A stretch of DNA of 64,000 nt from Thermoanaerobaculia bacterium (GTDB taxonomy: Bacteria > Acidobacteriota > Thermoanaerobaculia > UBA5066). The stretch is from assembly GCA_963816185.1 (NCBI GenBank), contig CAWFJJ010000025.1, positions 512,001 to 576,000 of the forward strand, given 5' to 3'. Under the pieces are notes generated by a model that ran no database searches, was not told where the DNA came from, and saw only the letters and a program-made list of their open reading frames with translations. Positions 21,313-31,630 of the stretch are shown here, piece after piece (the stretch's first letter is position 1; every line of letters starts with the position of its first letter). Made by a program: the position numbers and the translations under genes.

Positions 21313-22461
21313 ATGGCTTTCTCGCTCTCCGATGAGCAGGAGGCAATTCGACGGATGGTGCGTGATTTCGCCCAGAGCGAGATCGCACCCCACGTCAAGG
21401 AGTGGGACGAAGCCCAGACGTTTCCGCGCGAGGCGCTGCGGCAGCTCGGGGACCTCGGGATGCTGGGCGTGCTGGTGCCGGAAGAGTACGGAGGCGCGGG
21501 CCTCACGTACATCGACTACATCCACGTGATCGAGGAGCTGTCCCGCGTGGACGGTTCCGTGGGTCTTTCGGTCGCCGCGCACAACAGCCTCGCGACGAAC
21601 CACCTGTGGCTGTTTGGAAACGAGGGGCAGCGCCGCACGTGGGTGACGCCGCTCGCGCAGGGGAAGCTCCTGGGAGCCTGGGGCCTCACGGAGGCCGAGG
21701 CCGGCAGCGACAGCGGCGGGACGCGGACGACGGCCGTCCTCGACGGTGATGCCTGGGTGCTGAACGGCGCCAAGACGTTCATCACGCACGGCTCGGTCGG
21801 TGACGTGGCGGTCCTCATGGCCGTGACGGACAAGGCGGCGGGCAAGCGCGGCATCTCGGCGTTCGTCGTGGACCTTCACCAGAAGGGCGTCCACTCGGGC
21901 AAGAAGGAGAACAAGCTCGGCATGAGGGCGTCCGACACCGCGACGATCGTGATGGAGGACTGCCGGATTCCGAAAGCCAACCTCCTCGGCGCTGCGGGAG
22001 AAGGGTTCATCCAGGCGATGAAGGTGCTCGACGGCGGGCGCATCTCGATCGCGGCCCTCGCCCTGGGCATGGCGCAGGGCTGCCTCGACTGCTCGCTTCG
22101 CTACGCGAAACAGCGCAAGCAGTTCGGAAAGAGCATTTCCGAGTTCCAGTCCATCCAGAACTACCTCGCCGACATGGCGACCGAGATCGACGCCGCGCGC
22201 CTCCTGACGTACCGCGCCGGCTGGGCGAAGGACCAGGGCCGCGTCACGACGAAAGAGTCCGCGATGGCGAAGCTCTACGCATCGGAGGTCTCCGTGCGCG
22301 CCGCGAATCTCGCCGTGCAGATACACGGCGGGTACGGCTTCACGAAGGACTTCCCGGCCGAGAAGTTCTACCGGGACGTGAAGCTCTGCACGATCGGCGA
22401 AGGCACGTCCGAGATCCAGCGGATGGTCGTGGCCCGCGAGCTCCTGCGCCCGGGCGGTTGA
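21313..22461 (+). CDS. Acyl-CoA dehydrogenase
   Basis: [51 protein letters not shown]; start uncertain (21214/21256/21313). Confidence 0.95.
22195..22228 (+). repeat. 34-bp direct repeat, copy 1 (inside the acyl-CoA dehydrogenase gene)
   Basis: GCGCGCCTCCTGACGTACCGCGCCGGCTGGGCGA, identical to 25177-25210. Confidence 0.9.
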
Positions 22462-22529
22462 GTCGCCGCGCCGCCCGAACTGAATCTCGTTCCGAGGCAT
22501 ATAGTATTCGAGCGTCCGTCCGTCGCCTC

Positions 22530-25163
22530 ATGCGATTCTCTGCCGGAGCCCGTCTCGGCCCATACGAGCTCGTTGGCATGCTCGGAGCCGGCGGCATGGG
22601 CGAGGTCTATCGCGCGCGTGACCCGCGCCTCAATCGCGATGTTGCGTTGAAGGTGCTGCCGCCCGAGGTCGCGAACGACCCCGACCGTCTCCGGCGCTTC
22701 GAGCAGGAGGCCCGCGCGGCAGGAGCGCTGAACCACCCCAATGTCCTCGCGGTTTACGACATCGGGAGCCAAGAAGGCGTCTCTTACATCGTATCGGAGC
22801 TCTTGGAAGGGGAGACGCTCCGCGGCCGCCTGGAAGAAGGAGCGCTCCCTCTCCGCAAGGCGGTCGACTACGCCGTGCAGATCTCCCACGGGCTGGCCGC
22901 GGCCCACGAGAAGGGCATCGTCCACCGGGACCTCAAGCCGGAAAACCTCTTCGTTACGAAAGATGGACGAGTCAAGATCCTGGACTTCGGCCTGGCCAAG
23001 CTCGTCGAACCCGAATCGGTTGGCGCCGAAGCGGTCACGGCGACCGGGAAGAACGAGATCCTCGGTACCGTGGGCTACATGGCCCCGGAGCAGATCAAGG
23101 AGCTCGGCGTGGACCACCGAACCGACATATTTGCTTTCGGAGCGGTCTTCTACGAGATGCTGTCCAAGCGGAAAGCGTTCCAGAAGGAGACTGGGGCCGA
23201 GACGCAGGCTGCGATCCTGACGCTGGACCCACCGGATCTCTCGGCGGGCAACCCGCCGATCTCAGGCTCTCTGAACCGCATCGTGCACCGGTGTCTGGAG
23301 AAGAGACGTGAAGAGCGATTCCAGTCGGCACGAGACCTCGGATTCGCGCTGGAGGCGTACTCGGGCATATCGGACGAGGGGCCGCGTATCGACGTGGTTG
23401 CCCTGACGCGCAACACGCCCGCACGGCGCCCCCGGTGGATTCCGGGAGCGATCGCCGCCGGACTGCTTCTGGCGCTCGGGGTCGCTGGATGGCAGCTTCG
23501 TCAGCGTGACTATTTCTGGCGGAACCCGCTCGCGGGCGCACGATTCAGCCGCTTCACGGACTGGGCAGGCTCGGAGCTCGATGCGAGCATCTCCGCCGAC
23601 GGGAAGTTCGTGGCGTTTCTCTCGGACCGCGACGGACGGTTCGACGCCTGGGTGGGTCAGATCGGCAGCGGCGAGTTCCTCAATCTCACCAAGGGCCCAC
23701 ATCCAGTTGCCCCGGTTTGGCAGGTTCATAACGTCGGCTTCTCCGACGACGGAGCTCATGTTTGGTTTCACTCGACAGACGAGAAGATGCACAGCGTCTC
23801 GCTTGTGCCCACGATCGGTGGAGCGCCGCGGACTTTCCTGCCGAATGCCGTCGAGGCGGCTTGGTCGCCCGACCACACTCGCATCCTCTATTACGCGCCG
23901 GATCCCGGTGACCCGATCTTCATCGCCGATCGGAACGGAGGAAACCCAAGGCAGATCTGCATCGGCAAGCCCGGTATTCACCAGCATTACGTCACATGGT
24001 CGCCGGACGGCCGCTTCATCTATTTCGTCCGAGGCATACCCCCGGACGAGATGGACGTCTGGCGAGTAGCCTCGGCAGGCGGAGTCGCGGAGCGTCTGAC
24101 CCATCACAATTCGTTGGTTGCCTGCCCGAGTCTGCTCGACGACCGGACTCTGATCTACACCGCCATGCGAGAGGACGGCTCCGGTTCCGGGCTCTTCGCG
24201 ATGGACGTCGAGCGGCGCATCTCGCACGCGGTGAGCGCCGGTATCGAGGAGTACGTCTCGGTCGGCACCAGCGCCGACGGCCATCGACTGGTCGCGACGG
24301 TGGCCAATCCCGTCCGTGACCTCTGGACGGTCCCGATCACGGATCACATCGTGGACGAGGCTGCCGTGACGCAACTCAAGCTGCCGACCGTGCGCGCGGC
24401 GGCGCCCCGCTTTGGACGCGACTACCTCCTTTATCTGGGATCGAAGGGTGCCGCAAATGGACTGTGGAAGCTCAAGGATGGCTCCGAAATTGAGTTGTGG
24501 AAAGGGAGTGACGGTGCCGTGCCCTATGCCGCGGCCGTGTCCCCCGACGGAACGCAAGTCTGCTTCGTGGCCCGCAGCGGAGAACACGCGCGCCTTCACT
24601 TGATGGCGGCGGACGGCACCAACGTGCGCCGCCTCGCGGAGTCGCTCGAGGTCCGCGGCGCGCCGACCTGGTCTCCGGACGGGAAATGGCTGGCCGTCGC
24701 CGCCACCGAAGGCAAGGCAAATCCGCTGTTGAAAGTACCGGTGGGTGGCGGACCACCCGTACTCCTGGTCGACGGAGTGAACTCCGTCATTTCCAATCCG
24801 GTCTGGTCGCCCGATGGCCGCTTCATCCTCTACTCGGAGGGTCGGGGCTCCGCGACGTCTCGGCTCCTGGGGGTCACTCCGGATAAACGGCCCTTTTCAC
24901 TGCCAGAGGTCTGGGTGGGGATCTCTGGCGACCGGTACCGTTTTCTGCCCGACGGAAAGAGTGTGGTCGTCATGCAGGGCGCGTTGTGGCTGCAGGATTT
25001 CTTGCTGCTCGATCTGACGACCGGCCATCGGCGTCAGTTGACGAACCTAGGGCGGGAAACTCTCATGCTGAGCTTCGACATCTCGCCCGACGGCAAGACA
25101 ATCATCTTCGACCGTTACCGCCAGAACTCCGACATTGTCTTGATCGATCGCGTCCTGCGTTAG
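22530..25163 (+). CDS. Hanks-type Ser/Thr kinase with TM and TolB-like (PD40) beta-propeller
   Basis: [33 protein letters not shown]; repeated WSPDG; ATG 22530. Confidence 0.93.
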
Positions 25164-25240: not shown

Positions 25241-27508
25241 TCACAGACCAATCCGCTTCAGGAGATCCGCGAACCGCGGATCCGCGCGCAGCGGGTCCGC
25301 ACGCGGGTCGACCCGCAGCAGCGCCAGGAAGGGGGTCCGTTCGGCCACGGCCTTGTCGAGCCATTTGAAAGCAAGATCCGTCCGGCCGAGCGCCACTTGG
25401 ATATAGGCGATGTCGAGCGACGAAACGTATCGCCGCGGCGCGAGAGCGGCGAGCTCGGCGAGGATCGCCTCCGCCTCGTCCCGCCGGCCCGAGGCAGCCA
25501 GGCAAGCGCCGAACGAGGAAAGTCGGGTTGGGTCGCGGCCCGACAGTTCAGCCGCGCGTGCTCCAAACCGCGTCGCTTCCGTCCACATCCGCTTCGCGAA
25601 GTAATTCAAGCTCAAGAGGTGGTGCGCGACGGCGAAGTTTGAGTCCATCTCGAGGACCTTTTCTAGCTCGGCGATGGCTTCGTCGTATCGGCGGGCGAGA
25701 AAGAAGCACCAGCCAAGGCTGGCACGGGCGGGAAGAGAGAGAGGATCCAATGCCTCCGCGCGGTGCAACTCCACGAGGCCATCCTGAAACCTCTCCCTGC
25801 TCGTGAGGAAGATGCCGTAGAAGTGATGAACGTGGACGAAATCGGGGCTCGCCGCGATCGCTCGATGGAATTCCTCCTCGGCACCCGACCAGTCCCAGTC
25901 GTACCAGAAACGAACGACGGCGAGAACGGTCCGTGCTTCTCCCAACGACGCGTCGAGCTCCAGCGCCCGGGTGGCAGCCGCCTTCGCCCTGGGAAACGCT
26001 TCCTGCGGCTCAAGATACTGGTAGAAGCCGAGCTGGTTGTAAGAGTGCGCGATCCCGGCGTAGGCGAGGGCGTACTCGGGGTCGACTTCGATCGCCTCCT
26101 TGAACAGCTCGATGCCTTTCCGCAGCCCGTCGGCCGTCCGCTTGTTCCAGTAGAAGAGCCCTTTGAGATAGAGGCGATGGGCCTCGGGGCTCTCCGTCGC
26201 GCGATGCGCGAGGAGCTGCTCGTTCTCGCCCGTGACCTTCACGCGGAGCTTCTCCGAGATCTCCCGCGAAATCTCGTCCTCGATCGCGAGGATGTCGGCG
26301 AACTTCCGGTTGTAGTTCTCGCCCCAGATCTGCGATCCGTCTCGCGCATCCACGAGCTCGGTCTTGATCACGAGGTTGTCCCCGCGATGAAAGACCCTGC
26401 CGGTCAAGACGGCACGGACCTTCAGCTCGCTGCCGACCGTCTGCGGATCGATCTCCCGTCCCTTGTAACGGGAAAGCGTGGTGCGCGCCATGACGCGCAG
26501 GTTCGGAAGCCGGGAAAGGCTGTTGATGATGCTTTCCGCGATGCCGTCGGACAGATACTCCGTGTCCGGATCGGGGCTCGCGTTCGCGAAGGGCAGGACG
26601 GCGATCGATTCAATCGCCGGGCCGTGCTTCCCGGAGGACGACGGGGCTCCTATCGAACCGCTCGTCACTTCCTTCAGATGGAATGCCAGATCCCGCGCCG
26701 ACTGAAACCGCTCTTCGCGGTTCTTCTCCAGACAACGACTGACAACTCTCTGGAGAGGCGTCGGCAGCGCAACCCCGAAAGTGGCGATCTCCGGCGGATG
26801 ATCCCGCAGAATTGAGGCCAGCGTCTCCCCGCTGGAGTTTCCTTCGAAGGCCCGCCGGCCCGAGAGCATTTCGAACAGCAGGCAGCCGAAGGAAAAGATG
26901 TCGCTTCGCGCGTCGACTGCTTCGAGCCTTACCTGCTCTGGCGACATGTAGCCGACCGTTCCGAGAACCGTGCCGGCTTCCGTCTGCATCGATCCCGTCG
27001 GCGAGGAAGTCGCTCCGCCCATGGGGCGCTCTTCCAAGCGCGCGAGACCGAAGTCCAGGATCTTGACGAGGCCTGCGGACGTCACGAAGACGTTTTCCGG
27101 CTTCAGGTCCCGATGCACGATCCCCTTCGCGTGCGCGGCGGAGAGTCCGTCGGTGACTGCGATCCCGATCTCGACGGCCTTTCGCCAACCCAGACGCTCT
27201 CGAGCGATTCGTTCACGGAGCGTCTCGCCATCCAGCAGCTCGGTGACCGCGAAACGAATTCCGTGGTCCTCACCGAAGTCGTGGATCGCGAGAATGTTCG
27301 GATGCGACAGCGCGGCGACCGCCTTGGCCTCCCGCTCGAACCGCGACAGCGCGTTCGCGTCCGCCGCCAGCCGCTCCGGCAGCACCTTGATCGCCACCTC
27401 GCGATCGAGCCGCGTATCCCGCGCCCGGTAGACCTCTCCCATCCCGCCCGCACCCAAGGGCGCGAGGATCTCGTAAGGGCCGAGCCGGGTGCCCTCTTTG
27501 AGAGGCAT
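25241..27508 (-). CDS. Hanks-type Ser/Thr kinase with TolB-N-like domain and TPRs
   Basis: [22 protein letters not shown]; SIAVLPFAN..EYLSDGI; C-terminal TPRs ending DPLRADPRF. Confidence 0.93.
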   Translation of the reverse strand: MPLKEGTRLGPYEILAPLGAGGMGEVYRARDTRLDREVAIKVLPERLAADANALSRFEREAKAVAALSHPNILAIHDFGEDHGIRFAVTELLDGETLRERIARERLGWRKAVEIGIAVTDGLSAAHAKGIVHRDLKPENVFVTSAGLVKILDFGLARLEERPMGGATSSPTGSMQTEAGTVLGTVGYMSPEQVRLEAVDARSDIFSFGCLLFEMLSGRRAFEGNSSGETLASILRDHPPEIATFGVALPTPLQRVVSRCLEKNREERFQSARDLAFHLKEVTSGSIGAPSSSGKHGPAIESIAVLPFANASPDPDTEYLSDGIAESIINSLSRLPNLRVMARTTLSRYKGREIDPQTVGSELKVRAVLTGRVFHRGDNLVIKTELVDARDGSQIWGENYNRKFADILAIEDEISREISEKLRVKVTGENEQLLAHRATESPEAHRLYLKGLFYWNKRTADGLRKGIELFKEAIEVDPEYALAYAGIAHSYNQLGFYQYLEPQEAFPRAKAAATRALELDASLGEARTVLAVVRFWYDWDWSGAEEEFHRAIAASPDFVHVHHFYGIFLTSRERFQDGLVELHRAEALDPLSLPARASLGWCFFLARRYDEAIAELEKVLEMDSNFAVAHHLLSLNYFAKRMWTEATRFGARAAELSGRDPTRLSSFGACLAASGRRDEAEAILAELAALAPRRYVSSLDIAYIQVALGRTDLAFKWLDKAVAERTPFLALLRVDPRADPLRADPRFADLLKRIGL

Positions 27509-27562: not shown

Positions 27563-28627
27563 TCAGAATCGCCGCGCGTAGCTCGCGAGGAGCAGATAGG
27601 GAACGAAGTCCGAACCGATGTGCCTGCCCTTGGATCTATCGAGGAGGCTGTCGAGCTTGTTCTGGTACGCGCGTATCGGGACGCTCACCGAGGCGATGTT
27701 CGCGCCGTTCGTCCAGGTCAGACCAGGCTCGATGTAGATTTCGTATCCGGGCCTCCGCCAGTAGAGATCACCACCGCCGATGAGGTCCCTCACGGTTACC
27801 CCGTTGATCCGGCCTCCTAGCGACACGACGAGGCCCTTGGGCACCGGCAGCGCCTGGGCCAATCCCAATCGTCCCGAGTACGTGTCTGGCACGCCCCTGA
27901 GGGCGTCGGGGAGTCCGGACGGAAGATATTGGTGCACGTTGGTGTGCACGTTGAGACTCAGCCCGTAGTAGGCGGATCCGTAGGCGAACAGGTCGCCGAC
28001 GACTTTGGCCGTGCCCTGCGCCCTGAGCAGGATCTCCCAGCCTCCGTTACCCGGTTGAAACGTCTCATCGATCGGCAGCTCGCCGGTGGGATACGTTCCC
28101 GTCGCGGAGTCGGACCCCGTCGGCATCTTGATCCCGATGTCCACGGAGCCTTGAACTCGCGAAGACTTCGTCGGATCCGACAGCCAGTATTCCATTCCGA
28201 GCGAGATGTCGCCGAGTCCGTTCACGTTGAAGCTGTAGAACCGGCTGGATCCTGCGGGGTCGTGAAAACCGCCCGAGCCCGAGAGAAACGGCACGGTCAG
28301 ATCCAGGCTGAGGCGGTTGCTCAGCGCGTAGATGACGTCGAGGTCGTAGATGCTGACGTTTCGCACGGGCGCCTTTCCCCCAGGCCCGGCGGCGTCATTG
28401 CGCTGATCCCCGACGAAGAGCTGGTTCGTATAGGCGTATTGATACGAAACCTGAACCTGCCAGTGTGCTGCGGGAAGATAGGGCTGGTTCTGCAGGCCCA
28501 AACTGGGCTCTGTGAATCGGATCGGCTGTCAACCCTGGCCGGCGGCCGGCCTCGTAACGGCAAAGACTGCAGCCAGAATCACGAGACGAAGAGCCCACCT
28601 CGAGACCTCGACGCGCATCCCGGCCAT
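27563..28627 (-). CDS. Probable selenoprotein: outer-membrane beta-barrel (MetA-pathway/'transporter'-like) with in-frame UGA at codon 33
   Basis: GAGGAGG RBS and ATG 28627; signal peptide, then QG-TGA(28531-28529)-QPIRF in frame with ORF 27563..28501; GLGDI and GIKMPTG barrel motifs; C-terminal Phe; hairpin 3' of the UGA. Confidence 0.75.
28488..28528 (-). promoter_or_regulatory. Candidate bacterial SECIS element
   Basis: UUC-A-CAG-A-GCCC[AGUUU]GGGC-CUG-CA-GAA; apical loop starts 24 nt after the UGA with G at loop position 2. Confidence 0.65.
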
Positions 28628-28803
28628 GATCAGCCTCCTCGATTCGAATCGTGGCGGGTCAAACGTCGGCGGCCCGCCATTTGGAAACGATCTTGTTCCG
28701 CGCATTGGACACTCAATGGCAATCCCGGTCAACGCCGAATCGAGGCGGTGCGAGCAATGATCCACGAGCCCGCGCCGCCTCTTCCCGATACTCGCCCGAC
28801 AGC

Positions 28804-30090
28804 CTAATGATCCCGTCCGTCATCGTCTCCGTGGATCCGCCGAAGCGCGTGCTCGAGGACGTACTCGGCGACCAGGACGCCCGTACTCTGGCCGTCACGG
28901 CAAGCCGAGCGGTAGTGAATGCCGCCGAAGATGCGGGCATCCGCGACCTCGTCGAGCGCCGACGGGAAATCCCCGAAAGAGCGGACGACGCCCGGCATGA
29001 AGTCGGACTCCAGGCTGAAGTCCGCGTCGGTTCCGAAGAGTGCCGAAAGGACCGCCGCGGCGGCGCCGCTCACGGTGGCGTGGCCGGAGGGGTACTCGGG
29101 AAAGGCCGGAGTCACCAGGAGCGGTGTCCAGGCCGGATCGGGGTCGGTCGCCGGGTTTCCATCCGTGTCCGCCAGTGAAATCGCCGTGACCGGCCGCCAG
29201 AACACGTAGTGATACTTCCCGTCCCAGCAGGCGATTGCGGCGTCCGCCATGGCGAGATTCAGAAGAGCCAGAACGTAGGACTCTTCCGAAAAGGTCAGAT
29301 GAGTCCGGAGGCCGAGCTCCACGGCTGCCCGGTCCCAGAGGTAGGCCGGCGTCGTCGAATTCCAGAATTGGGCGGAGAGAGTCTGGTCCGAGGTCCGGAG
29401 GGGGCTCGAGAGGCTGCCCATGGACTTCGTTTCGTTGAAATCGGCCGCGTACTGCGCGCTCGCGAGGTTTGGGGGGCCCGACGGGCGGAATTGCGAGGCG
29501 GATTCGATCACCCATGTTTCCATCGTGGCGAACTGTGGCGCGGCGCCCGGCAGGAACCCGGGCGGCGTCGGCCGCCACTCTCCGACGGCCAGGCCGCCGA
29601 GAAACGGCGGAGGAGGCGGCGTGAAGCCGTCCGCGCTCCGCCAAGCCCAGATCGCGTCCGCGACTGCCTGCCCCCATTCGACTCCCCGGGCGATGGACTG
29701 GCTGTGCTCCTCGGCCTCTTCATCTGCGATCGCCGCCAGCGACGCCGCAAGCTTCACGTCGAAGGTGCTCTTCTGGGAGGGGTAGAGTCTGACGAGGTTC
29801 GCATAGGCCGCCTGGACTGCCGCCGCGCGCCGCGACGCCCCGCGCGGCGCGGCCGGGGCGACGTGGATCGGGGTGTACCGGCGCTCGATGCCGTTGACGG
29901 CGTCGAAGACGGAAGCCTGGACGATCGCGGCCACGCGGGTCATGACGAGCGGGCTCGTGGGCGGGACCGCGTCGTGCGCAGCCTGCAGCATGATCCCGTT
30001 CCAGTCCGTGACCTCGTCGGCGCGGACGGCCGTCGAGATGGAGCTGGCCATGGCAGCCAGCACGAAGAACGACCTGGCGAATCGTTTCAT
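28804..30090 (-). CDS. Secreted vanadium-dependent haloperoxidase / PAP2 superfamily protein
   Basis: Signal peptide, DEVTDWN; KYHYVFWRP, PEYPSGH, RIFGGIHY; AAAGGAG RBS. Confidence 0.88.
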   Translation of the reverse strand: MKRFARSFFVLAAMASSISTAVRADEVTDWNGIMLQAAHDAVPPTSPLVMTRVAAIVQASVFDAVNGIERRYTPIHVAPAAPRGASRRAAAVQAAYANLVRLYPSQKSTFDVKLAASLAAIADEEAEEHSQSIARGVEWGQAVADAIWAWRSADGFTPPPPPFLGGLAVGEWRPTPPGFLPGAAPQFATMETWVIESASQFRPSGPPNLASAQYAADFNETKSMGSLSSPLRTSDQTLSAQFWNSTTPAYLWDRAAVELGLRTHLTFSEESYVLALLNLAMADAAIACWDGKYHYVFWRPVTAISLADTDGNPATDPDPAWTPLLVTPAFPEYPSGHATVSGAAAAVLSALFGTDADFSLESDFMPGVVRSFGDFPSALDEVADARIFGGIHYRSACRDGQSTGVLVAEYVLEHALRRIHGDDDGRDH

Positions 30091-30166
30091 GATGTCTCCT
30101 TTCCTGGCGTTTCGAACGCGACTCAATTGCATCGCGCTGCTAAGATTGATTTCTCGACGGGAGAAG

Positions 30167-30214: not shown

Positions 30215-30859
30215 ATGCGGCTGACTTTCGCTGATTGCGTTTTCGACTCGGGAACCAGAGAGATCTCTCTGGGCGGGCGAATGGCGCCGATCTCTCCCAA
30301 GGCTTTTCGGCTCCTCGAGATCCTGATCGAGAGACGCCCGAACGCCGTCCCAAAGGAGCAGCTTCATGAGCTCCTGTGGCCGAGCACGTTCGTGGCCGAT
30401 GCAAACCTGCCCAACCTCGTGGCCGAGCTGCGGGCCGCGCTGGGCGACGATCCACAGAACCCGCGCATCGTCCGGACGGTGCCGAGGTTCGGCTACGCGT
30501 TCTGTGCGGAGGCCGCGCCGACCCCGAGCGGGCAGGGCCGCTCCGTCGTCTTCAAGCTGCTTTGGGGCGGGCGGGAGATCGCGCTCGATCCCGGCGAAAA
30601 CGTCCTGGGCCGGGATCCGCTATGCGTCGCCTGCATCGACGTCGGGAGCGTCTCGCGGCGCCACGCTCGCATCGTCGTGTCGGGAGGCAGCGCGACCGTG
30701 GAGGACTTGGGGAGCAGGAACGGGACGTTTCTCAAGGGGGAGGCGGTTGTGTCCGCCTGCGTGCTTTCCGACGGCGATCGAGTCCGGCTCGGGACCGCGG
30801 AGATGACGGTCCGGCGCTACGTCGGCGGCGTTCCGACGGAGCCGGTGCAAGACGCGTAA
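30215..30859 (+). CDS. Transcriptional regulator, OmpR/CadC-type winged helix + FHA domain
   Basis: LLEILIERRP..ELRAALGDD..RTVPRFGYAF; FHA motifs LGR, VSRRHA, DLGSRNGT. Confidence 0.9.
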   Translation: MRLTFADCVFDSGTREISLGGRMAPISPKAFRLLEILIERRPNAVPKEQLHELLWPSTFVADANLPNLVAELRAALGDDPQNPRIVRTVPRFGYAFCAEAAPTPSGQGRSVVFKLLWGGREIALDPGENVLGRDPLCVACIDVGSVSRRHARIVVSGGSATVEDLGSRNGTFLKGEAVVSACVLSDGDRVRLGTAEMTVRRYVGGVPTEPVQDA

Positions 30860-30941: not shown

Positions 30942-31361
30942 CTACCGCGCCTTCGTTTCCTTCCGCGCCGCGCGATTGAGTGCCTCGTCGAACGACGAAA
31001 AGCGGATCTGTCGCACGCCGTTTCCATACAGAGAGAGGTAGGACGCGAGGTGAAGGCTGTCGAAGCCGCGGAGATGATGCTTCTCGGCGAGGTCTCCGGC
31101 GTTGCGGTAGACCGCCTCGCTGACTTCGACGGCCAGGTACCTCGGCCAATCCAACTCGAGGTCGTTTTTCGCCTGCCCGAACCCCGCGAACGTCAGCCCG
31201 CCCGCGCGTCGCTGGCGAGCGAGGGCCGCCCGGGCCTCGACATACGTTACGACCGACGTCGCCACGAGCTCGGCGCGCTCCACAAGATCCCGAACCAAGC
31301 GCGATCCCTGCTCCTCGACGTAGAGCTTCACCAGGCTGCTCGTATCGAGATAGGCGATCAA
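30942..31361 (-). CDS. vapC: VapC-type PIN-domain toxin
   Basis: YLDTSSLVKLYVEE, VEARAAL, LRGFDSLHLAS, FDEAL; TTG start overlaps the antitoxin stop. Confidence 0.88.
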   Translation of the reverse strand: MIAYLDTSSLVKLYVEEQGSRLVRDLVERAELVATSVVTYVEARAALARQRRAGGLTFAGFGQAKNDLELDWPRYLAVEVSEAVYRNAGDLAEKHHLRGFDSLHLASYLSLYGNGVRQIRFSSFDEALNRAARKETKAR

Positions 31362-31630
31362 CGACGATCCTCGAGGACCATCTCCGCGGTCGTTTTCCTC
31401 CCTTTCAGCGCCGCAGCCCGTACGCTCCCCCGGGGCTTGCCTCCGCTCCAGCTCGCGATCCTCCCGCGAACGAGGTCCCACCCCCATTTTGCCTCGTCCG
31501 TTTCCTCGATCGGCGTCAGAGCGGCAAGGGGCTCACCCCGATCCGTGACCACGATTCGTTCGCCCTCTCCGGCCCGTCTCAAGTAATCGCTCAAGTGGTC
31601 CTTGAGGACCCTCACCCCGACACGCGTCAT
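31358..31630 (-). CDS. Phd/YefM family antitoxin
   Basis: VGVRVLKDHLSDYLRRAGEGERIVVTDRGEPLAAL; AGGAGG RBS. Confidence 0.9.
   Translation of the reverse strand: MTRVGVRVLKDHLSDYLRRAGEGERIVVTDRGEPLAALTPIEETDEAKWGWDLVRGRIASWSGGKPRGSVRAAALKGRKTTAEMVLEDRR

What the first reader, a model, noticed from the sequence alone, without database searches (positions are those of the whole stretch)
27563..28627. Hidden selenoprotein: outer-membrane barrel with Sec at the mature N-terminus
Seen: the track's ORFs 28529..28765 and 27563..28501 share one frame and are separated by a single TGA. A strong RBS precedes ATG 28627, then a signal peptide ending AAG, then Q-G-U-QPIRF. The downstream piece alone has no signal peptide, although it ends in a barrel-type Phe. 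A hairpin GCCC[AGUUU]GGGC has its loop 24 nt after the UGA. Established: bSECIS hairpins lie just 3' of the UGA with a G early in the loop. From memory (unchecked), related barrels begin QGCVAIR, which would put Cys at this position. Inference: an exported Sec near residue 3 of a mature outer-membrane protein, perhaps binding metal or acting in redox, next to a haloperoxidase gene.
Basis: partly seen in the sequence, partly recalled or inferred. Interest (0 to 1): 0.85.

Follow-up and report, generated by a model that had tools for sequence, protein, structure and literature searches.

The report
Selenocysteine outer-membrane barrel, new family
A soil Acidobacteriota gene for an outer-membrane barrel protein reads an in-frame TGA as selenocysteine at the third residue of the mature protein, which appears to define an undescribed selenoprotein family that gene callers routinely cut short.

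Summary
On the minus strand one frame runs from ATG 28627, preceded by GAGGAGG, through a signal peptide and TGA 28531-28529 to the stop at 27565-27563.

- **Conservation:** the same codon is TGA in 51 of 54 related loci and TGC (Cys) in the 3 most distant. Full-length distant homologs carry signal peptide + AQGC. In 401 sampled Acidobacteriota genomes, 27 matches have the TGA and 9 read through without a stop.
- **SECIS:** a hairpin 24 nt after the TGA (GCCC-AGUUU-GGGC) meets the four published bSECIS criteria. It shows compensatory changes, and its loop motif A-GUY-U matches the FdhA and SelD hairpins of the same genome.
- **Machinery:** selA, selB, selD (itself Sec) and tRNA-Sec are present. 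All 27 genomes with a TGA form have SelA; 4 of 7 Cys-only genomes do not.
- **Fold:** a confident barrel (pLDDT 92) closest to FapF and the COG4313 channel.
- **Novelty:** no Pfam or NCBIfam model fits, and the family is not in the 2026 catalogue of 119 selenoprotein families.

Function is inferred only: a lone selenol on the conserved N-terminal segment QGUxP[IV]R. The conserved neighbours are a Ser/Thr kinase and an FHA regulator, not the haloperoxidase.

The parts
27563..28627 (-). Whole selenoprotein gene: 354 codons plus the stop. Precursor = signal peptide + QGU + barrel.
   Evidence: Single open frame if TGA 28531-28529 is read through. The frame and the TGA are conserved in 51 of 54 loci.
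28634..28640 (-). Shine-Dalgarno-like GAGGAGG, 6 nt before the ATG
   Evidence: Read directly from the sequence.
28538..28627 (-). Signal peptide, codons 1-30, ending AAG. Predicted signal peptidase I cut before Q31.
   Evidence: Basic N-region, hydrophobic core and small residues at -3/-1. The pattern A-x-[AGS] then QG[C/U] holds across the homologs I read. The cut site is inferred and was not run through a predictor.
28529..28531 (-). Sec codon UGA: codon 33, residue 3 of the predicted mature protein
   Evidence: TGA in 51 and TGC in 3 of 54 loci. TGA at the same site in 9 of 11 loci fetched from the phylum sample, including distant subfamilies. Cys in 23 of 29 distant homologs read; the other 6 start just after the site.
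28492..28512 (-). bSECIS hairpin. Core stem GCCC 28508-28505 / GGGC 28499-28496, apical loop AGUUU 28504-28500, weaker lower stem out to 28512/28492.
   Evidence: MFE -11.2 kcal/mol for the 66 nt from the TGA. Pairs 33-45, 34-44, 35-43 and 36-42 are never broken in 45 distinct sequences, and 33-45 is GC 29, GU 12, AU 4. Across subfamilies, 21 compensatory cells against 9.5 +/- 2.0 in shuffles. CCC41 and AGT42 are invariant in 45 of 45. Same A-GUY-U loop as the FdhA and SelD hairpins of this genome.
27566..28537 (-). Mature protein, 324 residues: conserved N-terminal segment QGUQPIRFTEPSLG, then a beta-barrel ending in ...ARRF
   Evidence: AlphaFold2 on a 54-row alignment: pLDDT 92.4, pTM 0.88, strands from residue 26, residues 1-20 low confidence. 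Foldseek best matches are FapF and the COG4313 channel. The family profile hits FapF at E 7e-16.
27563..27565 (-). True terminator, also TGA
   Evidence: Family genes end in TAG 32, TGA 17 and TAA 5 of 54, so TGA is not reassigned generally.
25241..27508 (-). Downstream Ser/Thr protein kinase with TPR repeats (755 aa), 54 nt after the barrel gene
   Evidence: Pfam Pkinase 1.5e-45 plus TPR. A same-strand kinase gene starts within 700 nt downstream in 27 of 36 testable loci.
22458..25163 (+). Second Ser/Thr kinase (901 aa) with a hydrophobic segment and PD40 beta-propeller repeats. This type follows the barrel gene directly in most related loci.
   Evidence: Pfam Pkinase 9.2e-50, PD40 6.5e-29. 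Long matches at 52-59% identity directly downstream of the barrel gene in loci such as L003, L005, L013, L015, L017 and L060. The membrane segment was read by eye.
30215..30859 (+). FHA + OmpR-type winged-helix regulator (214 aa)
   Evidence: Pfam FHA 4.9e-16, Trans_reg_C 5.1e-15. A homolog lies within 900 nt upstream of the barrel gene in 19 of 35 testable loci, mostly on the same strand.
28804..30132 (-). Vanadium haloperoxidase homolog with an N-terminal signal-peptide-like segment. A neighbour, not a conserved partner.
   Evidence: PDB 4cit E 1.8e-39. Pfam PAP2 26.2 bits, just under the 27.2 cut-off. A homolog is present in only 3 related loci, L002, L012 and L040.

Best explanation
The two annotated ORFs are one gene for an exported selenoprotein.

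**Decoding.** SelB with Sec-tRNA(Sec) reads UGA codon 33 as selenocysteine. It is directed there by a coding-region bSECIS hairpin (GCCC-AGUUU-GGGC) whose loop starts 24 nt downstream of the UGA.

**Export and fold.** The precursor is exported and probably cut after ...AAG. The mature outer-membrane protein then begins Q-G-U-Q-P-I-R-F. Its body is a beta-barrel homologous to the FapF amyloid-secretion channel and similar in fold to the COG4313 channel.

**The reactive residue.** The Sec, which is Cys in many relatives, is the only chalcogen-bearing reactive residue in nearly all members. It sits in a short, strongly conserved N-terminal segment.

**Inferred role (not shown).** By analogy with the N-terminal plugs of related channels, this segment lies at the periplasmic mouth or inside the lumen. 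The lone selenol would then act as a redox-reactive or metal-binding group that gates or senses. In this clade the gene sits in a module with a Ser/Thr kinase and an FHA/winged-helix regulator.

**Shown versus inferred.** Shown: the recoded codon, the Sec/Cys pairing, the SECIS features, the Sec machinery, and the fold. Inferred: the cleavage site, the position of the N-terminus, and the chemical role.
For: 1. **Conserved TGA.** The codon is TGA in 51 of 54 loci and TGC in the 3 most distant ones (26-37% identity). True terminators are TAG 32, TGA 17 and TAA 5.
2. **Database entries are all cut short.** None of the 120 listed hits in the 5.8-billion-protein search covers more than 90% of the joined query. 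All 16 sequences that I read start at or after the residue following the TGA.
3. **Wider Sec/Cys pairing.** Of 29 homologs at 28-39% identity, 23 carry a signal peptide followed by Q-[GS]-C. The other 6 start with the Met right after the site.
4. **Phylum sample.** In 401 Acidobacteriota genomes there were 44 matches in 40 genomes. Of these, 27 have one TGA, 9 cover the site without a stop, and 8 do not reach the site. In the 11 loci fetched (L073-L083), 9 have the TGA at exactly this codon and 2 have Cys.
5. **Repeated exchange.** A quick tree of 63 rows needs at least 7 Sec/Cys changes, 4 of them forced by well-supported branches. The window's clade of 22 rows is all Sec.
6. **SECIS.** The hairpin meets all four consensus criteria quoted in PMC13188914, Fig. 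2 legend:
   - loop of 5 nt;
   - loop matching N1-G-U-N-N2 with A and U able to pair;
   - a 4-bp core stem, extendable to 7;
   - 24 nt spacing and MFE -11.2 kcal/mol.
   Four pairs are never broken in 45 sequences. Across subfamilies 5 of 7 pairs change on both sides, and the covariation score is 0.341 against at most 0.139 for slid partners. Pro41 is always CCC and Ser42 always AGT.
7. **Internal control.** A genome-wide scan for TGA + AGTYT hairpins in open frames gave 9 hits. These included FdhA (..ARV-U-HGPTV), SelD (..SAG-U-ACKLG) and this gene.
8. **Machinery.** SelA 366 bits. SelB 321 bits with neighbouring pieces. SelD 340 bits with its own in-frame TGA. tRNA-Sec(UCA) twice.
9. **Co-occurrence.** All 27 genomes with a TGA form have SelA, against a background of 309 of 401. 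SelA was not found in 4 of the 7 genomes that have only a Cys form covering the site (G099, G111, G282, G326).
10. **Fold.** pLDDT 92.4. FapF E 1e-14 with TM 0.74-0.76; COG4313 channel 4rl8 E 7e-12 with TM 0.74. Profile to FapF E 7e-16.
11. **Lone Sec.** 48 of 51 Sec forms have no Cys anywhere in the mature protein.
Against: - No physical evidence of selenium in the protein, and no RNA data.
- The loop sits 6-8 nt further from the UGA than in the two canonical selenoprotein genes of the same genome. The distance from the T of TGA to the loop G is 28 here, against 22 for FdhA and 20 for SelD.
- The core stem in this clade is only 4 bp, and the lower stem is mismatched in many members. Pair 30-48 is unpaired in 16 of 45 sequences and pair 32-46 in 30 of 45.
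- Part of the hairpin potential follows from the conserved peptide (Ala/Glu-Pro ... Gly), and the Cys-form locus L078 can also fold a small hairpin there by eye. The structure alone is therefore not decisive.
- A lone Sec without a UxxC/CxxU partner is unlike most catalogued selenoproteins.
- The N-terminal 20 residues are modelled at pLDDT about 50, so the location of the Sec is unknown.
- The kinase/FHA context is absent from the 1.5-kb flanks of the distant Sec subfamilies.
- Related genomes are not independent samples, so the co-occurrence counts overstate their weight.
Confidence: 0.85

Rival explanations
1. The TGA is a real stop. A short upstream ORF encodes a separate hydrophobic peptide, and the barrel is made from the TTG at 28501 or another internal start, possibly by re-initiation.
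For: This is how every gene caller read it: all 120 listed database hits begin after the TGA. TGA also terminates this gene and 17 of 54 family genes.
Against: - The barrel would have no signal peptide.
- The nine codons between the TGA and the TTG evolve as coding sequence: third positions vary in 7 of 9, Arg37 is written with 5 codons, and the peptide QPIRF is conserved.
- The first available start differs from homolog to homolog.
- Cys occupies the site in homologs whose frame is continuous from the signal peptide.
- The TTG lies inside the conserved hairpin loop.
Confidence: 0.02
2. The UGA is read through but not as Sec. It could be read by a near-cognate tRNA (Trp or Cys) or by a Sec-type tRNA carrying Cys, which would give a Cys or Trp protein.
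For: Nothing here measures which residue is inserted. The genome carries two tRNA genes of the Sec type.
Against: - The two tRNA genes are identical, 99 of 99 bases, so there is no separate variant.
- The hairpin shares its loop motif with the FdhA and SelD hairpins of the same genome.
- TGA forms were found only in genomes with SelA, 27 of 27.
- If Cys were all that was needed, TGC would do, as it does in relatives. Holding a TGA plus a hairpin across a 22-row clade argues for selection on Sec itself.
Confidence: 0.04
3. Pseudogene or assembly error: the gene is broken in this genome.
For: Some related loci from long-read MAGs do carry frameshifts further inside the gene (L020, L021, L067).
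Against: - The same TGA at the same codon appears in 51 loci from many assemblies and studies.
- It also appears in distant subfamilies.
- Contigs of two other runs show no difference at the site.
Confidence: 0.01
4. The protein is a lipoprotein. The conserved Cys/Sec would be the +1 residue of a lipobox, cut by signal peptidase II and acylated, rather than a free redox or metal group.
For: A signal peptide followed by an invariant Cys is the hallmark of bacterial lipoproteins. Gly at -1 fits a lipobox.
Against: Read by eye:
- Position -2 is almost always Gln.
- Position -3 is Gly, Ala, Ser or Pro rather than Leu, Val or Ile.
- Charged residues (Arg, Glu, Asp) stand between the hydrophobic core and the Cys.
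- A classical A-x-A/G signal peptidase I site lies two residues upstream in nearly all members.

The lipobox consensus is recalled, not taken from a tool.
Confidence: 0.05

Closest known systems
FapF, the outer-membrane channel for functional amyloid secretion in Pseudomonas (PDB 5o65/5o67; NCBIfam NF058560)
   Same: Best structural match (Foldseek E 1e-14, TM 0.74-0.76 on the target). It is also the only solved protein found by the family's sequence profile (E 7e-16 over profile positions 82-267). The barrel is therefore homologous.
   Different: - The NCBIfam FapF model scores 17.5 bits against a cut-off of 700.
- No fap-type neighbours; the neighbours are kinases and an FHA regulator.
- The N-terminal part is a short QG[U/C]xP[IV]R segment.
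- FapF is not a selenoprotein: no paper in the library holds both 'FapF' and 'selenocysteine'.
COG4313 / Pfam PF13557 (Phenol_MetA_deg) outer-membrane channels, e.g. Pseudomonas putida 4rl8
   Same: Similar barrel (Foldseek E 7e-12, TM 0.74). Some family members reach the Pfam threshold: P0091 23.1 bits and P0191 26.3 bits against a cut-off of 22. Atlas clusters of the Cys forms carry PF13557 on 15-28% of members.
   Different: The window's protein does not match PF13557 at E up to 0.1. Six of 8 distant Cys homologs tested show no hit at E up to 0.01, one only a sub-threshold hit (16.8 bits) and one (P0191) passes. No Sec or N-terminal QGC motif is described for that family, as far as I recall.
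Catalogued outer-membrane selenoproteins: the GSU2204 / MtrB-PioB family barrel (NF041027) and the TonB-dependent receptor of FCYXU type (NF049945)
   Same: They are predicted Sec-containing outer-membrane beta-barrel proteins of bacteria, listed among 119 families in Table 1 of PMC13188914.
   Different: They are unrelated families. Neither NCBIfam model matches the window's protein or 8 distant homologs at E up to 0.01. Those barrels are much larger, and their Sec is not at the mature N-terminus (motif '-' and CxxU in the table).
Canonical bacterial selenoprotein genes of the same genome (FdhA, SelD)
   Same: In-frame UGA followed by a coding-region hairpin whose apical loop reads A-GUC-U. 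They would be decoded by the same SelB and tRNA-Sec.
   Different: In those genes the loop lies 20-22 nt from the U of UGA and the stems are 7-9 bp. Here it lies 28 nt away with a 4-bp core stem.

Membership tests
Bacterial selenoprotein gene (UGA decoded as Sec) | In-frame UGA conserved at the same codon in orthologs | tested here: met
   TGA in 51 of 54 loci. TGA in 27 of the 36 site-covering matches in 401 genomes. Position verified in 9 of 11 fetched loci.
Bacterial selenoprotein gene (UGA decoded as Sec) | Cys aligned to the UGA in homologs (Sec/Cys pair) | tested here: met
   TGC in L068, L069 and L071. Cys in L078 and L081. Q-[GS]-C in 23 of 29 distant homologs read.
Bacterial selenoprotein gene (UGA decoded as Sec) | bSECIS: loop of 3-9 nt, stem of 4-16 bp, G in the first two loop positions, 16-37 nt from the UGA, MFE at or below -7.5 kcal/mol (criteria as quoted in PMC13188914, Fig. 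2 legend) | tested here: met
   Loop AGUUU, core stem 4 bp, spacing 24 nt, MFE -11.2 kcal/mol. Covariation. bSECISearch itself was not available, and Rfam has no matching model.
Bacterial selenoprotein gene (UGA decoded as Sec) | Sec machinery (selA, selB, selC, selD) in the genome | tested here: met
   SelA is also present in all 27 genomes with a TGA form.
Bacterial selenoprotein gene (UGA decoded as Sec) | Selenium physically present in the protein | not testable with these tools
   Needs 75Se labelling or mass spectrometry.
FapF family (NF058560) | Score above the curated model cut-off | tested here: not met
   17.5 bits against a cut-off of 700.
FapF family (NF058560) | Homologous barrel fold | tested here: met
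   Foldseek E 1e-14, TM 0.74-0.76. Family profile against the FapF sequence, E 7e-16.
FapF family (NF058560) | fap operon context (amyloid subunits and partner genes) | tested here: not met
   The neighbours are kinases, an FHA regulator and a haloperoxidase homolog. I did not search for the fap genes themselves.
Pfam PF13557 Phenol_MetA_deg (COG4313) | HMM score above the gathering threshold (22 bits) | tested here: inconclusive
   The window's protein has no hit at E up to 0.1. Relatives P0091 (23.1 bits) and P0191 (26.3 bits) pass; of the other 7 distant homologs, six show no hit at E up to 0.01 and P0138 only 16.8 bits, below threshold.
GSU2204 / MtrB-PioB barrel selenoprotein (NF041027) and TonB-dependent receptor FCYXU type (NF049945) | Match to the NCBIfam model | tested here: not met
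   No hit at E up to 0.01 for the window's protein or for 8 distant homologs.
Bacterial lipoprotein | Lipobox [LVI][ASTVI][GAS]C directly after the hydrophobic core (consensus recalled) | tested here: not met
   The motif is [AGSP]-Q-G-[C/U], with charged residues before it and an A-x-A/G site two residues upstream. I read this by eye; no predictor was run.

The most novel reading that the evidence does not exclude
The lone N-terminal selenol is the sensing or gating element of an outer-membrane channel. That channel would be wired to a eukaryote-like Ser/Thr kinase with a periplasmic PD40 propeller and to an FHA/winged-helix regulator. Together they would form an outer-membrane redox, metal or hypohalite sensor, and selenium would act in envelope signal perception rather than in metabolism. 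Because Sec usually replaces catalytic or redox-active Cys, the finding would also mark the whole uncharacterised 'QGC' barrel superfamily as outer-membrane proteins with a reactive N-terminal thiol. That superfamily has 675 representative clusters at E up to 0.001.
Probability: 0.12. Interest if true: 0.85.

Novelty: new member of a known kind. Interest (0 to 1): 0.7.

Why it matters
**Annotation.** Every database copy of this family that I saw is truncated. It lacks the signal peptide and the Sec, and is labelled hypothetical. A simple rule would repair hundreds of gene models in soil Acidobacteriota: read the TGA after ...GQG as Sec.

**Selenium biology.** This adds an outer-membrane barrel of the FapF/COG4313 type to the selenoproteome. 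The 2026 catalogue lists only two other outer-membrane families. It also shows Sec in about 7% of the sampled Acidobacteriota genomes (27 of 401), a phylum that has hardly been looked at for selenoproteins.

**Function discovery.** Repeated exchange between Sec and Cys at one residue points to the N-terminal Cys of a large uncharacterised barrel superfamily as its reactive site. That gives experimenters a precise residue to mutate.

Tried and rejected
**Searches that gave nothing decisive**
- Pfam and NCBIfam on the joined protein gave only weak hits: Omp_AT 14.2 bits and FapF 17.5 bits.
- Rfam on 28380-28640 gave only a chance narK match at E 5.6. Bacterial SECIS elements are short, so this says little.
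- The haloperoxidase link was rejected as a conserved feature. A homolog is seen in 3 related loci only.
- Distant Sec subfamilies (L074-L083) have heterogeneous neighbours and no kinase within 1.5 kb. The neighbours include archease, a TolB_N+TPR protein, DsrE, CoaE, a lysyl-oxidase-like protein, a HisKA kinase and a sigma-54 activator. No common metabolic partner emerged.
- Expression: no RNA holder was listed among the 8 runs. Run X5 laid nothing, and X3 does not reach the site.

**Limits of the structure model**
- The tool gives no coordinates, and the first 20 residues are low confidence. I could not place the Sec relative to the lumen.

**Literature**
- Searches found no report of this family.
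- PMC13188914: I read Table 1 (section 7, parts 1-2) and section 5.
- PMC9312934: one passage.
- PMC12013277: passages only.
- 'Not in print' therefore means: not in those searches, not in that table, and not in Pfam or NCBIfam.

**Rows left out**
- L063, L066 and L070 lack the N-terminal part and were left out of the codon count.
- L038, L041, L055, L056, L059 and L064 look like duplicates of other loci and were left out of alignment A2.
- A4 holds 16 of the 46 A2 rows plus 8 distant rows.
- The tree used 63 rows of my own choosing and the quick method only.

**Recalled, not from a call:** that FapF and related channels have N-terminal plugs.
Full report
**1. What is in the sequence**

On the minus strand a Shine-Dalgarno-like GAGGAGG (28640-28634) precedes ATG 28627. 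The frame then encodes MAGMRVEVSRWALRLVILAAVFAVTRPAAG-QG, a TGA at 28531-28529, then QPIRFTEPSLGLQNQ..., and runs open to TGA 27565-27563. The product ends in ...ARRF. The two mechanically listed ORFs, 28529..28765 and 27563..28501, are the two halves of this frame. A hairpin follows the TGA: GCCC (28508-28505), AGUUU (28504-28500), GGGC (28499-28496). Its loop starts 24 nt after the TGA. The TTG that gene callers use as a start (28501) lies inside that loop.

**2. The TGA is conserved and pairs with Cys**

- **Protein database.** A search of 5.8 billion proteins with the joined protein found 320 relatives. None of the 120 listed covers more than 90% of the query. The 16 sequences I read begin at or just after the residue that follows the TGA, for example MPIRFTEPSLG and LGLQNQ. 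That pattern is expected if every copy has a stop there.
- **DNA of relatives.** I fetched 20 loci from species-representative genomes. They come from Thermoanaerobaculia and other Acidobacteriota MAGs, plus one MAG labelled Krumholzibacteriia. I also fetched 37 loci from metagenomes.
- **The codon.** In the 54 loci that include the N-terminal part, the codon is TGA in 51. It is TGC in the 3 most distant ones: L068 SAQGCEPIRF, L069 GGQGCEPIRF and L071 KSQGCITIRN. The same genes end in TAG (32), TGA (17) or TAA (5), so TGA is not a general sense codon.
- **Both sides are translated.** Across 45 distinct sequences, the three codons before the TGA vary only at third positions. In the nine codons between the TGA and the TTG, third positions vary in 7 of 9, against 3 of 9 for first and for second positions. 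Arg37 uses five different codons.

**3. The wider family**

- **Exhaustive search.** A search of 1.84 billion cluster representatives gave 675 proteins at E up to 0.001. The other 6 begin with the Met immediately after the site, as a caller would produce if a TGA preceded it.
- **Phylum sample.** In 401 Acidobacteriota genomes there were 44 matches in 40 genomes. One TGA lies inside 27 of them, 9 cover the site without a stop, and 8 do not reach it.
- **Position check.** In the 11 loci delivered, 9 have the TGA at exactly this codon. These include forms at 30-37% identity with a different following peptide (AQG-U-[IV]L[AIV]R[QN].APV.G). Two have Cys.
- **Tree.** A quick maximum-likelihood tree of 63 rows puts the window in a 22-row clade that is entirely Sec (SH-aLRT 100). 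It needs at least 7 Sec/Cys changes overall, 4 of them forced by well-supported branches.

Repeated exchange at one residue is the usual signature of a functional Sec/Cys site.

**4. SECIS and machinery**

The consensus bSECIS model, as quoted in the Fig. 2 legend of PMC13188914, has four criteria:
- a 3-9 nt loop;
- a 4-16 bp upper stem;
- a G in the first two loop positions, mostly as N1-G-[G/U]-N-N2 with N1 and N2 pairing;
- 16-37 nt between the UGA and the loop, with MFE at or below -7.5 kcal/mol.

The window's hairpin meets all four. Its loop is A-G-U-U-U, its core stem is 4 bp, the spacing is 24 nt, and the MFE is -11.2 kcal/mol for the 66 nt from the TGA.

Within the window's clade, the four core pairs are never broken in 45 distinct sequences. 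Pair 33-45 is GC 29, GU 12 and AU 4. Pro41 is always CCC and Ser42 always AGT, which is striking at synonymous sites in a G+C-rich genome.

When 8 sequences of distant Sec subfamilies are added, the helix stays in the same place with different letters, for example GCGCGCC...GGCGCGC, ACGCACC...GGTGCGT and GCTCACC...GGTGGGC. Five of 7 pairs change on both sides. There are 21 compensatory cells against 9.5 +/- 2.0 in shuffles (0 of 500 reach the observed value). The covariation score is 0.341 against at most 0.139 when partners are slid.

As an internal control I scanned the whole genome for TGA followed by a hairpin with an AGTYT loop inside a long open frame. The scan gave nine hits. They include formate dehydrogenase alpha (..ARV-U-HGPTV), SelD (..SAG-U-ACKLG) and this gene; by eye the other six look like Arg-rich off-frame reads. 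The candidate hairpin thus has the same apical motif as the two textbook selenoprotein mRNAs of the same organism.

The genome encodes SelA (366 bits), SelB (over the cut-off with neighbouring pieces), SelD (340 bits) and two identical tRNA-Sec(UCA) genes.

Across the 401 genomes SelA passes its cut-off in 309. All 27 genomes with a TGA form have it. SelA was not found in 4 of the 7 genomes that have only a site-covering Cys form (G099, G111, G282, G326). These genomes are related to one another, so this is supporting evidence rather than a statistical test.

**5. Points against**

- No selenium or RNA measurement exists.
- The loop lies 6-8 nt further from the UGA than in FdhA and SelD of this genome (28 against 22 and 20).
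- The core stem is short, and the lower stem is often mismatched.
- Part of the pairing potential follows from the conserved peptide itself, and one Cys-form locus can fold a small hairpin at the same place by eye.
- Rfam holds nothing that matches.

**6. What the protein is**

AlphaFold2 on a 54-row alignment gives a confident barrel: pLDDT 92.4, pTM 0.88, strands from residue 26. The first 20 residues are at about pLDDT 50.

Foldseek against the PDB puts FapF first (E 1e-14, TM 0.74-0.76), then the COG4313 channel 4rl8 (E 7e-12, TM 0.74). FadL, TodX and OmpG follow well behind. The family's sequence profile finds FapF alone in the PDB, at E 7e-16, so the barrels are homologous.

No curated family fits. 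PF13557 is reached by only a few relatives, and the FapF NCBIfam model scores far below its cut-off. Atlas clusters of the Cys forms are labelled 'hypothetical protein'.

The predicted signal-peptidase cut is A-x-[AGS] | Q-G-[C/U]. It makes Sec residue 3 of the mature protein. This follows from the pattern across the homologs I read and was not run through a predictor.

Of 51 Sec forms, 48 have no Cys in the mature protein. Of 27 Cys forms, 20 have no second Cys, and 6 have one 2-10 residues later. In most members, then, the Sec/Cys cannot form an intramolecular bond. It must act as a free nucleophile, as a metal ligand, or in an intermolecular link.

**7. Context**

The upstream gene is indeed a vanadium haloperoxidase homolog, but a homolog of it appears in only 3 related loci.

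The recurrent module in this clade is FHA + winged-helix regulator, then barrel, then Ser/Thr kinase, mostly on one strand:
- A kinase gene starts within 700 nt downstream in 27 of 36 testable loci.
- The regulator lies within 900 nt upstream in 19 of 35 testable loci.
- The usual kinase type is the one with PD40 propeller repeats. In the window that type lies one gene further on (22458-25163), and a TPR-type kinase (25241-27508) follows the barrel directly.

Distant Sec subfamilies do not share this context within 1.5 kb. I make no claim of binding.

**8. Comparison with what is known, and novelty**

The 2026 review lists 119 prokaryotic selenoprotein families in its Table 1, which I read in full. 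Two are outer-membrane proteins: a GSU2204/MtrB-PioB barrel and a TonB-dependent receptor of FCYXU type. None is a FapF/COG4313-type barrel, and none has a QGU motif. Their NCBIfam models do not match this protein.

The deep-Sep paper, of which I read passages, analysed one Acidobacteriota genome and found no new family there. Four literature searches found no report.

I therefore file this as a new member of a known kind. It is an ordinary bacterial Sec-recoding gene in mechanism, but in a protein family and a cellular location that are new or nearly new for selenium.

**9. Verdict**

That this is a genuine Sec-encoding gene for a FapF-like outer-membrane barrel: about 0.85-0.9. That the Sec acts as a lone redox or metal-reactive group on an N-terminal plug or tail: plausible but untested. 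The boldest reading, a selenium-based outer-membrane sensor feeding a Ser/Thr kinase pathway: about 0.12. Interest 0.7.

Noticed in passing
Own genome, contigs C14 (29774-29872, minus) and C24 (155246-155344): Two tRNA-Sec(UCA) genes that are identical over all 99 bases. This is either a real duplication or a repeat or redundancy in the assembly (contamination estimate 3.38%).
   Followed up: partly
Own genome, C8:373999-374967 and C1 minus strand (FdhA-like): SelD is itself a selenoprotein here (..SSAG-U-ACKLG), and the formate dehydrogenase alpha subunit has ..ARV-U-HGPTV. Both hairpins have an A-GUC-U apical loop. That motif could serve as a lineage-specific SECIS search pattern.
   Followed up: partly
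L014 and L018 (one MAG, two contigs); also L004 and L017 (one contig): Some genomes carry two paralogous Sec-form barrel genes. In L014 and L018 the codon after the TGA is ATG, which explains database entries that start MPIRF....
   Followed up: partly
L009 / L059: One Sec-form locus comes from a MAG labelled Candidatus Krumholzibacteriia, outside Acidobacteriota. This could be gene transfer or a binning error.
   Followed up: no
L020, L021, L067: In these loci the barrel gene is interrupted by frameshifts further inside, while the Sec TGA itself is intact. These are likely assembly errors in the two isolates with MFD-type labels, or real decay.
   Followed up: no
Distant Cys homologs P0138, P0144, P0151, P0191, P0201, P0218: A second Cys lies 6-10 residues after the conserved N-terminal Cys, for example QGCVAIRHMSSC. 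It might form a small N-terminal disulfide loop in those subfamilies. It is absent from the Sec forms.
   Followed up: partly
window 30942-31630, minus strand: Two small overlapping ORFs (181 aa and 90 aa) look by eye like a toxin-antitoxin pair. I ran no family search on them.
   Followed up: no
L077:2763-3227: A DsrE-family gene lies directly downstream of a distant Sec-form barrel gene. DsrE-like proteins are themselves a catalogued selenoprotein family. I did not check this copy for Sec.
   Followed up: no
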